In this document: in pieces, positions 1,584-2,432 of the stretch
Layout: each line of letters starts with the position of its first letter
How positions within the stretch are numbered: the first letter of the stretch is position 1
From: Pseudomonadota bacterium
Lineage (GTDB): Bacteria; Myxococcota_A; Polyangia; Haliangiales; Haliangiaceae
Direction of reading: 5' to 3'
DNA length: 26,754 bases
Assembly: GCA_026387715.1 (NCBI GenBank)
Contig: JAPLLF010001100.1
Location: 1 to 26,754, forward strand
Translations under genes and position numbers: made by a program
The notes under the pieces: model-generated
Database searches by the model: none
What the model was told of the DNA's origin: nothing
The model's input: the letters and a program-made list of their open reading frames with translations, nothing else

Positions 1584-2432
1584 TCAGGCCTTGGGCTTGA
1601 CGCGGCCGATCTGGCGGGATCCGCGACGGTCCTTCCCGGTTCGCATCTTCGTCTTCTTGTCCTCGAACTCCTCCACCTCCGCGGGCCAGTTGACCTCCGG
1701 GAGCGGGAACGCCGGGCGCGCGAGGAGGTAGCCCTGGCCGAAGTGCGCGCCCGCCGCCTTGACCGCCTGCAGCTCGGGGAGGGTCTCGATGCCCTCGGCG
1801 ACGACCAGCGCGTCGAGCGAGTTGCACAACACGACGATCGCCGAGACCAGCTTGAACAGCCGGGTGTCCTCGACGAGCCCGGCGATCAGATCGCGATCGA
1901 GCTTCACCACCCGCGGGTGGAGGTCGGCGATGTACTTGAGGTTCGAGTAACCGGCGCCGAGGTCGTCGACGACGAGGTGCACGCCTCGACCGCGGACCTC
2001 CTCGAGGATGGTGCGGCACAGCGCGAAGTGCGACAGCGGCACGCCCTCGGTGATCTCGAGGTAGACCTCCTCGGCGTGATGATAGAGCGGGTCGTCGGGG
2101 CGAACGAGGTAGCCCTCGTCGAGCTCCGCGGGGTGGATGTTGATGAACAGCCGATCGTCGGGGCAGTTCTCGACGCTGAGCTTGCGGAGGAGCCGGCCGA
2201 GCTCGCCCGTGCAGCCGTACTTGACGGCGGCATCGAACAGCAGGGGCGGGCTGGTGAACTCCGGCGCGGACGAGCGGACGAGCGCCTCGTAGGCGAAGGT
2301 GCTGCCCGACCGGAGATCGACCACCGGCTGGTACACGATCCTCACCTCCCGCTGCTCGATCACCCGCCGGATCGCCGGGATCTCCAGGGACGGCGGGATG
2401 GTCGGCCGCTTCACGCGATCCTCACTCGGCAC
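1584..2432 (-). CDS. Stand-alone EAL-domain protein (putative c-di-GMP phosphodiesterase)
   Basis: 282 aa with a GTG start. All catalytic EAL motifs are present: QPVVDL...FAYEALVRS, LFINIHPAEL (Asn), YLEITEGV (ExTE), VVDDLGAGYSNL (DDxGxGYS), KLDRDLI (KxD), VVAEGIETLPE (EGxE) and GQGYLLARP. Confidence 0.9.
   Translation of the reverse strand: MPSEDRVKRPTIPPSLEIPAIRRVIEQREVRIVYQPVVDLRSGSTFAYEALVRSSAPEFTSPPLLFDAAVKYGCTGELGRLLRKLSVENCPDDRLFINIHPAELDEGYLVRPDDPLYHHAEEVYLEITEGVPLSHFALCRTILEEVRGRGVHLVVDDLGAGYSNLKYIADLHPRVVKLDRDLIAGLVEDTRLFKLVSAIVVLCNSLDALVVAEGIETLPELQAVKAAGAHFGQGYLLARPAFPLPEVNWPAEVEEFEDKKTKMRTGKDRRGSRQIGRVKPKA

What the first reader, a model, noticed from the sequence alone, without database searches (positions are those of the whole stretch)
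1584..2432. Catalytically intact EAL c-di-GMP phosphodiesterase embedded in the pho locus
A stand-alone EAL protein with every catalytic motif lies between the pstS Pho box and the phoB Pho box, co-directional with phoBR. In Pseudomonas fluorescens the Pho regulon lowers c-di-GMP through the EAL protein RapA (established knowledge). The gene order here suggests a hard-wired link between phosphate limitation and c-di-GMP signalling, and hence to motility or development in a myxobacterium. It has no sensor domain, so control is probably transcriptional.
Basis: partly seen in the sequence, partly recalled or inferred. Interest (0 to 1): 0.55.

Follow-up and report, generated by a model that had tools for sequence, protein, structure and literature searches.

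The report
Ordinary EAL phosphodiesterase beside phosphate genes
A small, probably active enzyme that destroys the bacterial signal c-di-GMP does sit between the phosphate-uptake and phosphate-regulator genes of this myxobacterial genome fragment, but the phosphate control sites beside it point at its neighbours and the arrangement is confined to a few close relatives, so a built-in phosphate-to-c-di-GMP link is unproven.

Summary
Window 1584-2414(-) (longest ORF to 2432) encodes a 276-aa stand-alone EAL protein. It matches Pfam EAL at 1e-43, has an EAL-type predicted fold, and keeps all 11 published catalytic and c-di-GMP-contact residues, which are invariant in 33 orthologues. It lies between pstSCAB(+) and phoB-phoR(-).

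GTCAC-N6-GTCAC occurs exactly twice in 26.7 kb. One copy faces pstS. The other lies downstream of the EAL stop codon and faces phoB.

- No Pho box faces the EAL gene in this window or in seven related loci with at least 74% EAL identity.
- The two closest relatives (86% and 84%) have no pstS and no Pho box upstream of EAL. Their Pho box sits directly before phoB.
- A pho gene adjoins EAL in 6 of the 9 close relatives, and in none of the other loci examined at 53-72% identity.
- In those more distant loci the recurrent neighbours are a GATase_4 gene and an FHA-GGDEF gene (28 loci each).

Most likely this is a conserved housekeeping-type c-di-GMP phosphodiesterase of Polyangia, placed next to the pho genes in one lineage only. 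PhoB co-regulation through the shared 147-bp divergent region is not excluded (about 0.2). It is a new member of a known kind and of low interest.

The parts
1584..2414 (-). Stand-alone EAL-domain gene, 276 aa (the longest ORF extends to GTG 2432). Predicted c-di-GMP phosphodiesterase with a short N-terminal leader and a basic, disordered C-terminal tail.
   Evidence: ORF. Coding GC3 of 0.94. Pfam EAL 1e-43. PDB EAL hits down to 1.4e-23. AlphaFold model pLDDT 84, with Foldseek hits to EAL structures at probability 1.0. Catalytic residues invariant in orthologues.
2415..2480 (-). EAL-proximal half of the pstS-EAL intergenic region. The EAL promoter is undefined. It holds GAGGA (2419-2423, possible Shine-Dalgarno) and TTGACG (2437-2442, -35-like).
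   Evidence: Read from the sequence. No sigma-70 consensus promoter found. Poorly conserved against L001. In L001, L164 and L165 the corresponding stretch has TTGCA(A/G)-N17-GACGAT 8-9 nt before the GTG start.
2481..2545 (+). Pho-box array facing pstS. Pentamers start at GTCAG 2481, GTCAC 2502, GTCAC 2513, GTCGG 2523 and GTCAC 2535, at multiples of about 11 bp.
   Evidence: Sequence. Exact GTCAC-N6-GTCAC at 2502-2517(+), one of only two in the window. Conserved in pstS sense in L001, L164, L165 and L166.
2562..6195 (+). pstS (2562-3578), pstC (3580-4455), pstA (4452-5324) and pstB (5308-6195): the high-affinity phosphate ABC transporter operon, divergent from the EAL gene.
   Evidence: NCBIfam equivalogs PstS 288.5 bits, PstC 245.6, PstA 258.7 and PstB 389, all above their cut-offs. 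Pfam.
1531..1567 (-). Pho box facing phoB, in the 76-nt gap after the EAL stop codon (units GGCAC, GTCAC, GTCAC, CTCAC). It is followed by a conserved -10-like GTGCTA(A/C) about 10 nt before the phoB ATG.
   Evidence: Exact match at 1541-1556(-). Flanking one-mismatch units. Conserved directly upstream of phoB in L081, L001 and L163.
803..1507 (-). phoB-like OmpR-family response regulator (the conserved ATG is at 1507; the ORF could start at 1513).
   Evidence: Pfam Response_reg plus Trans_reg_C. Best NCBIfam hit is PhoB TIGR02154 at 244.5 bits, below its 296.2 cut-off. Start codon from the alignment with L081 and L001.
1..799 (-). phoR-like histidine kinase, N-terminal part (PAS, start of HisKA), cut by the window end.
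   Evidence: Pfam PAS and HisKA. NCBIfam best hits PnpS and PhoR.

Best explanation
The gene encodes a small cytoplasmic EAL enzyme. It most likely hydrolyses c-di-GMP to pGpG with Mg2+ or Mn2+, probably as a dimer.

It belongs to a very conserved single-domain family of about 260-280 aa, found across the Haliangiales/Kofleriaceae, Labilithrix and Polyangiaceae lineages of Myxococcota. In one Haliangiales/Kofleriaceae sub-lineage the gene came to lie between pstS and phoB.

The two Pho boxes beside it are the operators of pstSCAB and of the autoregulated phoBR. They are not operators of the EAL gene. The EAL gene is read from its own weak, still unidentified promoter, or from upstream genes in the closest relatives. 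With no terminator after it, some of that transcription probably runs on into phoBR.

Shown here: domain, fold, residues, gene order, and the position and orientation of the Pho boxes across relatives. Inferred: enzymatic activity, independence from PhoB, and read-through.
For: Enzyme:
- Pfam EAL 1e-43, full length.
- Best PDB matches are active or c-di-GMP-bound EAL domains such as TBD1265, BifA, Bd1971 and MucR.
- AlphaFold model with pLDDT 84 and pTM 0.81.
- Residues Q29, E43, R47, N92, E120, E123, D150, D151, K171, D173 and E207 are invariant in 33 orthologues. They match the published intactness criterion (PMC2952852) and the metal ligands described in PMC5301497.

Pho boxes belong to the neighbours:
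- There are only two exact sites, each in the sense of pstS or phoB and directly before it.
- The phoB box with its -10-like element is conserved before phoB in L081, L001 and L163.
- The pstS box is conserved in pstS sense in L001, L164, L165 and L166.
- No EAL-sense site was found in any of these loci.

Upstream region replaced in the closest relatives:
- In L081 (86%) EAL starts 17 nt after a co-directional gene, with no pstS and no Pho box. msrB is inserted before the phoB box.
- In L163 (84%) a VWA gene precedes EAL, with no Pho box upstream.

Lineage-specific placement:
- A pho gene adjoins EAL only in L001, L081, L163, L164, L165 and L166, out of 166 loci.
- Unrelated flanking genes (CBS, kinase, VWA) are also syntenic between the window and L081. 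Adjacency at this distance is therefore not in itself evidence of coupling.
- There is no Pho-box enrichment upstream of 141 other orthologues.

Read-through: no terminator-like site and no unusually stable hairpin (z = -0.25) between EAL and phoB.
Against: - pstS<>EAL adjacency has survived in five contigs at 74-78% EAL identity while the genes on the far side changed. This could reflect selection.
- The shared intergenic region is short: 147 bp here, with the Pho box 57-88 nt from the EAL start in the five loci. PhoB~P binding could therefore still affect a divergent promoter.
- The EAL promoter in this window was not located.
- The Pho regulon review notes that real Pho regulon genes can lack recognisable Pho boxes (PMC4415409).
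- The Pho-box consensus used (GTCAC-N6-GTCAC) was derived from only two operators of this clade.
- The position aligned with TBD1265 E546 (the 'AAE' motif) is an invariant Val in this family. Its importance was not established here.
- No enzymology is possible with these tools.
Confidence: 0.6

Rival explanations
1. RapA-like circuit. PhoB~P bound at the pstS Pho-box array also activates (or represses) the divergent EAL promoter. Phosphate limitation would then change c-di-GMP levels in this lineage.
For: - The divergent control region is compact: 147 bp here, with the Pho box 57-88 nt from the EAL start in five loci.
- pstS<>EAL adjacency is retained in the window, L001, L164, L165 and L166.
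- Precedent exists in Pseudomonas fluorescens RapA (PMC3032545).
- In the window the promoter must lie between 2415 and about 2500, and could overlap the distal GTCAG repeat at 2481.
Against: - All repeats are in pstS sense, and PhoB binds head-to-tail to directional repeats.
- In L001, L164 and L165 a conserved TTGCA(A/G)-N17-GACGAT promoter-like element lies about 30 nt clear of the Pho box.
- The EAL-proximal half of the spacer is poorly conserved.
- The closest relatives, L081 and L163, lost pstS and the box but kept EAL.
- There is no enrichment of boxes upstream of other orthologues.
Confidence: 0.2
2. The EAL gene is functionally the first gene of an EAL-phoB-phoR transcription unit. 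Its Pho-independent promoter supplies the basal PhoBR level, and the internal Pho box adds autoinduction of phoBR alone. The coupling would then be transcriptional economy, not control of c-di-GMP by phosphate. This reading is compatible with the best explanation.
For: - The genes are co-directional with a 76-nt gap, no terminator-like site and no stable hairpin.
- The EAL-(msrB)-phoB-phoR order with short gaps is kept in L081 and L163.
Against: - In L001 phoBR lies about 4 kb away and convergent to EAL.
- In L142 (81%) the downstream gene is a convergent AraC-type regulator.
- In L164 a PD40-like gene follows EAL.
- Intrinsic terminators are hard to recognise in high-GC genomes.
Confidence: 0.3
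3. The protein is not primarily a c-di-GMP hydrolase. It could be a c-di-GMP sensor or 'trigger' protein that acts through protein contacts, or an EAL enzyme with another cyclic dinucleotide as substrate.
For: - The family has invariant features outside the canonical set: Val at the TBD1265 E546 position, HPxEL after the Asn, PLSH after EITE, a C-terminal WP, and a basic tail.
- A stand-alone 'versatile' EAL from Vibrio cholerae is among the structural matches (6ifq/6ij2).
- If the two EAL-only proteins of M. xanthus are related, their deletion gave no motility phenotype (PMC4686200).
Against: - All 11 catalytic and recognition residues, and a near-canonical loop 6 (DDLGAGYSNL), are invariant across 33 orthologues. 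Non-catalytic EAL receptors such as FimX and YdiV have lost these.
- The best matches are active phosphodiesterases.
Confidence: 0.1

Closest known systems
Catalytically active EAL-domain c-di-GMP phosphodiesterases (RocR, TBD1265, BifA, MucR, PA3825, PdeA/CC3396)
   Same: Same domain and fold, about 25-30% identity. All seven metal/catalytic residues and four c-di-GMP-contact residues are present, and loop 6 is near-canonical.
   Different: There is no partner domain (REC, GGDEF, PAS and so on). It has a short N-terminal leader and a basic C-terminal tail. Val replaces the Glu of the 'AAE' motif. Activity is untested.
RapA of Pseudomonas fluorescens Pf0-1 (Pho-regulated c-di-GMP phosphodiesterase)
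   Same: An EAL-type c-di-GMP phosphodiesterase connected with the Pho system.
   Different: RapA has a Pho box upstream of its own gene and is induced by PhoB~P. Here no Pho box faces the EAL gene, in this window or in its relatives. Sequence relatedness to RapA was not tested.
Stand-alone EAL proteins of Myxococcus xanthus (MXAN2424, 275 aa; MXAN2530, 416 aa)
   Same: Myxobacterial, EAL-only, with all catalytic residues reported conserved. MXAN2424 is of the same length class (PMC4686200).
   Different: Orthology was not tested here. Only uncultured Myxococcaceae MAG homologues at about 60% identity were seen, in L063 and L064. No pho linkage is reported for them, and their deletion mutants were not among the three genes found to affect motility.
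Other single-domain EAL phosphodiesterases: PdeH/YhjH (E. coli), RimA (Pseudomonas), VcEAL (V. cholerae)
   Same: Small EAL-only enzymes with no sensor domain, controlled mainly by expression level or partners.
   Different: NCBIfam scores are far below the family cut-offs: RimA 103 against 430, and PRK11596/PdeH 47.5 against 190. They are analogues in architecture, not orthologues.

Membership tests
EAL-domain c-di-GMP phosphodiesterase (Pfam PF00563), catalytically competent class | Full-length match to the EAL profile above the gathering score | tested here: met
   149.9 bits against a 31.3 cut-off, covering profile positions 4-236 of 236.
EAL-domain c-di-GMP phosphodiesterase (Pfam PF00563), catalytically competent class | Seven Mg2+-site/catalytic residues (RocR E175, N233, E265, E268, D295, K316, E352; criterion of PMC2952852) | tested here: met
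   E43, N92, E120, E123, D150, K171 and E207 (276-aa numbering), invariant in 33 orthologues. Mapped through the TBD1265 alignment, the motif context and identical spacings. RocR itself was not aligned residue by residue.
EAL-domain c-di-GMP phosphodiesterase (Pfam PF00563), catalytically competent class | [quoted passage not shown] | tested here: met
   Q29, R47, D151 and D173, all invariant.
EAL-domain c-di-GMP phosphodiesterase (Pfam PF00563), catalytically competent class | Conserved loop 6 / DDFG(T/A)GYSS motif | tested here: met
   DDLGAGYSNL, invariant in the family. There are two conservative departures (F to L, S to N) from the DDFGTG motif described in PMC5301497.
EAL-domain c-di-GMP phosphodiesterase (Pfam PF00563), catalytically competent class | EAL-type beta/alpha-barrel fold | tested here: met
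   AlphaFold2 pLDDT 84.2 and pTM 0.81. The top 50 Foldseek PDB hits are all EAL domains at probability 1.0, with TM-scores on the query length of about 0.54-0.72.
EAL-domain c-di-GMP phosphodiesterase (Pfam PF00563), catalytically competent class | Metal-dependent hydrolysis of c-di-GMP to pGpG | not testable with these tools
   Needs purified protein.
Pho regulon member (PhoB-activated gene, RapA-like) | Pho box (tandem 11-bp direct repeats) upstream of the gene, in the sense of the gene, at the -35 region | tested here: not met
   The only two exact sites face pstS and phoB. No EAL-sense site with at most one mismatch lies upstream of EAL in the window, L001, L081, L163, L164, L165 or L166.
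Pho regulon member (PhoB-activated gene, RapA-like) | Conserved linkage or co-occurrence with pho genes across orthologues | tested here: inconclusive
   A pho gene adjoins EAL in 6 of 9 close relatives with at least 74% identity, and in none of the other loci examined at 53-72% identity. There is no Pho-box enrichment upstream of 141 orthologues: 7 observed against about 4.4 expected.
Pho regulon member (PhoB-activated gene, RapA-like) | Expression depends on phosphate limitation and PhoB | not testable with these tools
   Needs expression data. The organism is an uncultured MAG.
Named single-domain EAL equivalogs (RimA NF052265; PdeH PRK11596) | Score above the NCBIfam equivalog cut-off | tested here: not met
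   RimA 103 bits against 430. PRK11596 47.5 bits against 190.

The most novel reading that the evidence does not exclude
In one Haliangiales/Kofleriaceae lineage a housekeeping stand-alone EAL phosphodiesterase was captured inside the pho locus. It shares a compact divergent control region with pstS. PhoB~P bound to the pstS-sense Pho-box array would then also modulate the EAL promoter. That would be a myxobacterial counterpart of RapA, coupling phosphate starvation to c-di-GMP and so to motility or development, through an unconventional upstream, inverted use of a Pho box.
Probability: 0.2. Interest if true: 0.4.

Novelty: new member of a known kind. Interest (0 to 1): 0.2.

Why it matters
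If PhoB did control this gene, it would add a myxobacterial example to a principle already established in Pseudomonas: phosphate limitation lowers c-di-GMP through a Pho-regulated phosphodiesterase. It would also give a function to a strongly conserved EAL family of Polyangia that has none assigned.

As the evidence stands, the finding is a well-conserved, ordinary c-di-GMP phosphodiesterase whose position in the pho locus is a lineage-specific accident of gene order. Its main value is as a cautionary case. Pho boxes on either side of a gene do not place that gene in the regulon when their orientation and comparative data say otherwise.

Tried and rejected
- Sigma-70 consensus promoter and intrinsic terminator scan of 700-2700: nothing found. 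The EAL promoter in the window therefore stays undefined.
- RNA folding of the EAL-phoB gap: no better than shuffles, z = -0.25. No terminator or attenuator is supported.
- A sigma-54-like reading of the conserved TGGCA/TTGCA stretch in L001 and L164: rejected. The GG-GC spacing is one base too long, it varies between loci, and it is absent from the window.
- A sigma-70 reading of TTGACG (2437-2442) with GAGGAT (2418-2423) in the window: rejected. The spacer is only 13 nt, so GAGGA is more likely the ribosome-binding site.
- Rfam scan of 1-6500 at E <= 0.1: no RNA family.
- Attempt to establish the role of TBD1265 E546, which is Val in this family: one literature search was uninformative and the primary paper is not held. 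It is left as a caveat.
- Look-up of P0005 (80% identity): not on record.

Full report
**1. What is at the coordinates**

The ORF 1584..2432 on the minus strand (282 aa) is real. Its codon-position GC content of 0.71/0.41/0.94 is the signature of a genuine gene in this roughly 70% GC sequence. The long ORFs on the opposite strand are shadows.

Pfam finds a single EAL domain covering profile positions 4-236 of 236, at E = 1e-43, and nothing else. The most likely start is the GTG at 2414 (MKRPTIPP...), six codons inside the longest ORF. Three things support this:
- NCBI's own 276-aa call for this contig, an uncultured 'Proteobacteria bacterium' MAG of exactly 26,754 nt.
- Orthologue N-termini of the form MKRPT(I/L).
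- A GAGGA 4 nt upstream.

**2. The neighbours**

On the minus strand, downstream of the EAL gene, lie two genes:
- A phoB-like OmpR-family regulator at 803-1507. Its best NCBIfam hit is PhoB TIGR02154 at 244.5 bits, below the 296.2 cut-off.
- The N-terminal part of a PhoR-like kinase, cut by the window end.

Divergent on the plus strand are pstS, pstC, pstA and pstB, all above their NCBIfam equivalog cut-offs.

**3. Is the EAL domain catalytically intact?**

A published operational criterion (PMC2952852) requires RocR E175, N233, E265, E268, D295, K316 and E352. It adds Q161, R179, D296 and D318 for c-di-GMP recognition. In the 276-aa numbering these correspond to:
- E43, N92, E120, E123, D150, K171 and E207 (catalytic and metal site).
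- Q29, R47, D151 and D173 (c-di-GMP recognition).

The mapping rests on the motif context in the residue-by-residue alignment with TBD1265. It also rests on spacings identical to RocR: D-D to K 21, K to E 36, E to D 30. All eleven positions are invariant in an alignment of 33 orthologues. So is loop 6, DDLGAGYSNL, which is close to the DDFGTG motif and the Asp/Glu metal ligands described in PMC5301497.

An AlphaFold2 model built on that alignment is confident, with mean pLDDT 84.2 and pTM 0.81. Only the termini and two active-site loops are uncertain. Its 50 best Foldseek matches in the PDB are all EAL domains at probability 1.0.

One departure was noted. The Glu of the 'AAE' motif (TBD1265 E546) is an invariant Val in this family. 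I could not establish its importance from the literature held. Activity is thus strongly predicted but not shown.

**4. The Pho boxes**

The pattern GTCAC-N6-GTCAC, two pentamers whose starts are 11 bp apart, occurs exactly twice in the 26.7-kb window. Shuffles give 0.15 expected. The format matches the accepted description of a PHO box: tandem 11-nt direct-repeat units bound head-to-tail by PhoB (PMC4415409).
- The site at 2502-2517 is on the plus strand. It is part of an array with pentamers starting at 2481, 2502, 2513, 2523 and 2535, which ends 22 nt before the pstS ATG. It faces pstS.
- The site at 1541-1556 is on the minus strand. It lies in the 76-nt gap after the EAL stop codon and faces phoB. 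It is followed by a -10-like GTGCTA(A/C) and then the phoB ATG. This whole block is conserved upstream of phoB in three relatives.

Neither site is placed or oriented to drive the EAL gene.

**5. Comparative test: wide sample**

I fetched 80 species-representative genome loci and 80 metagenome loci that encode orthologues at 53-86% identity, plus six more by exact-protein look-up. These orthologues come mostly from MAGs named Kofleriaceae, Labilithrix, Polyangiaceae or Haliangiales. Using tblastn with the window's PhoB, PhoR, PstS, PstC and PstB, only six of the 166 loci have a pho gene next to the EAL gene. All six are among the nine closest relatives, at 74% EAL identity or more.

**6. Comparative test: the close clade**

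| Locus | EAL identity | Context |
|---|---|---|
| L001 | 77% | pstBACS<>EAL; phoBR about 4 kb downstream, convergent |
| L164 | 78% | pstS<>EAL |
| L165 | 77% | pstS<>EAL |
| L166 | 74% | pstS<>EAL |
| L081 | 86% | no pst operon; VWA-kinase-VWA-unknown, then EAL-msrB-phoB-phoR, all co-directional |
| L163 | 84% | no pst operon; VWA, then EAL-phoB |
| L142 | 81% (partial) | followed by a convergent AraC-type gene |
| L147 | 75% | no pho gene in the flank visible |
| L149 | 75% | no pho gene in the flank visible |

In L081 the EAL gene begins 17 nt after the upstream gene.

In every one of these loci the Pho-box-like repeats are in pstS sense or immediately before phoB. None is in EAL sense upstream of EAL. 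The window-versus-L001 alignment of the divergent spacer is well conserved on the pstS side and poorly conserved on the EAL side.

In L001, L164 and L165 a conserved TTGCA(A/G)-N17-GACGAT lies 8-9 nt before the GTG start, about 30 nt clear of the Pho box. This suggests an independent, near-leaderless promoter. The window itself has no clear counterpart.

**7. Is the family Pho-regulated elsewhere?**

In 141 more distant loci with enough upstream sequence, 7 have a one-mismatch site in sense orientation within 250 nt. About 4.4 are expected from the background rate, and none is an exact match.

What recurs instead is a co-directional GATase_4 gene upstream (28 loci) and an FHA-GGDEF gene nearby (28 loci). 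The FHA-GGDEF gene is in most cases convergent and within about 300 nt downstream. The family's commonest partner is therefore a diguanylate-cyclase-type protein, not the Pho system.

**8. How to read the conserved adjacency in the close clade**

Between the window and L081, the unrelated genes on the far side (CBS protein, dCache Ser/Thr kinase, VWA/YfbK protein) are also in the same order. Gene order is generally retained at this distance, so it is weak evidence for function.

The likely ancestral state is pstBACS<>EAL-phoBR. Later breaks separated EAL from pstS in one branch and from phoBR in another. The persistence of pstS<>EAL in five contigs is the best point in favour of coupling. For that reason I keep a probability of 0.2 for PhoB acting on the divergent EAL promoter.

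**9. Mechanism proposed**

- The protein is a constitutive-type, sensor-less c-di-GMP phosphodiesterase. EAL enzymes are activated by dimerisation (PMC5301497).
- It is transcribed from its own promoter in the 2415-2500 region.
- No terminator-like site or unusually stable hairpin follows it. Read-through into phoBR is therefore plausible and could contribute basal phoBR expression.
- Under phosphate limitation PhoB~P would bind the two arrays and activate pstSCAB and phoBR.
- The enzymatic activity, the independence from PhoB and the read-through are inferences.

**10. Comparison with what is known**

- The Pho to c-di-GMP connection is established for RapA in Pseudomonas fluorescens, where PhoB~P binds a Pho box upstream of rapA (PMC3032545).
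- M. xanthus is reported to have two EAL-only proteins with intact catalytic residues, MXAN2424 (275 aa) and MXAN2530. Their deletions were not among the three genes that affected motility (PMC4686200). Orthology with MXAN2424 is likely from size and architecture but was not tested.
- Named single-domain EAL families (RimA, PdeH) score far below their cut-offs.
- No Rfam RNA family lies in 1-6500.

**11. Verdict**

This is a new member of a known kind, a conserved stand-alone EAL phosphodiesterase. Its location in the pho locus is lineage-specific, and no sequence evidence ties its expression to PhoB. Interest 0.2.

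Noticed in passing
window 16022-18673 (-): An 883-aa ORF with a major-vault-protein shoulder domain (PF11978, 7.5e-24) and a weaker match to the Vault_3 repeat family (2.6e-7 for the whole protein). This is an MVP-like gene in a myxobacterial MAG. It is flanked by large ORFs with no Pfam hit (13647-16001, 20173-22101) and an LRR protein (18708-20441).
   Followed up: no
L016/L082 (Labilithrix luteola) 7055-9855, and 27 further loci each: Outside the pho-linked clade, the EAL orthologue is recurrently flanked by a co-directional GATase_4 gene upstream (28 loci) and an FHA-GGDEF gene nearby (28 loci). 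The FHA-GGDEF gene is in most cases convergent and within about 300 nt downstream. This looks like a cyclase/phosphodiesterase gene pair and is far more widespread than the pho linkage.
   Followed up: partly
window 1507-1530 (-); L001 5945-5980; L164 and L165 equivalents: The conserved -10-like elements lie only about 8-10 nt before the start codons of phoB (GTGCTAA/C ... ATG) and, in relatives, of the EAL gene (TTGCA(A/G)-N17-GACGAT ... GTG). This suggests leaderless or near-leaderless mRNAs in this lineage.
   Followed up: partly
window 1584-2414 (-), residues 64, 94-98, 126-129, 243-244: The family has invariant features outside the canonical EAL set: Val at the position of TBD1265 E546 ('AAE' motif), HPxEL after the metal-binding Asn, PLSH after EITE, a C-terminal WP, and an Arg/Lys-rich disordered tail.
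   Followed up: no
L081 8825-9355: In the closest relative an msrB (SelR) gene is inserted between EAL and phoB. The Pho box sits after msrB, directly before phoB, which shows that the box travels with phoB.
   Followed up: yes
window 6210-10736 (-): pstB is followed not by phoU but by a convergent cluster of VWA/YfbK protein, dCache-Ser/Thr kinase and CBS-pair protein. This cluster is syntenic with L081, where the VWA gene is duplicated. No phoU was seen in the parts of the window scanned.
   Followed up: partly
L166 3253-3268: The pstS-sense Pho box lies inside the pstS gene as called on that contig (2132-3277). The deposited pstS start there is probably too far upstream.
   Followed up: no
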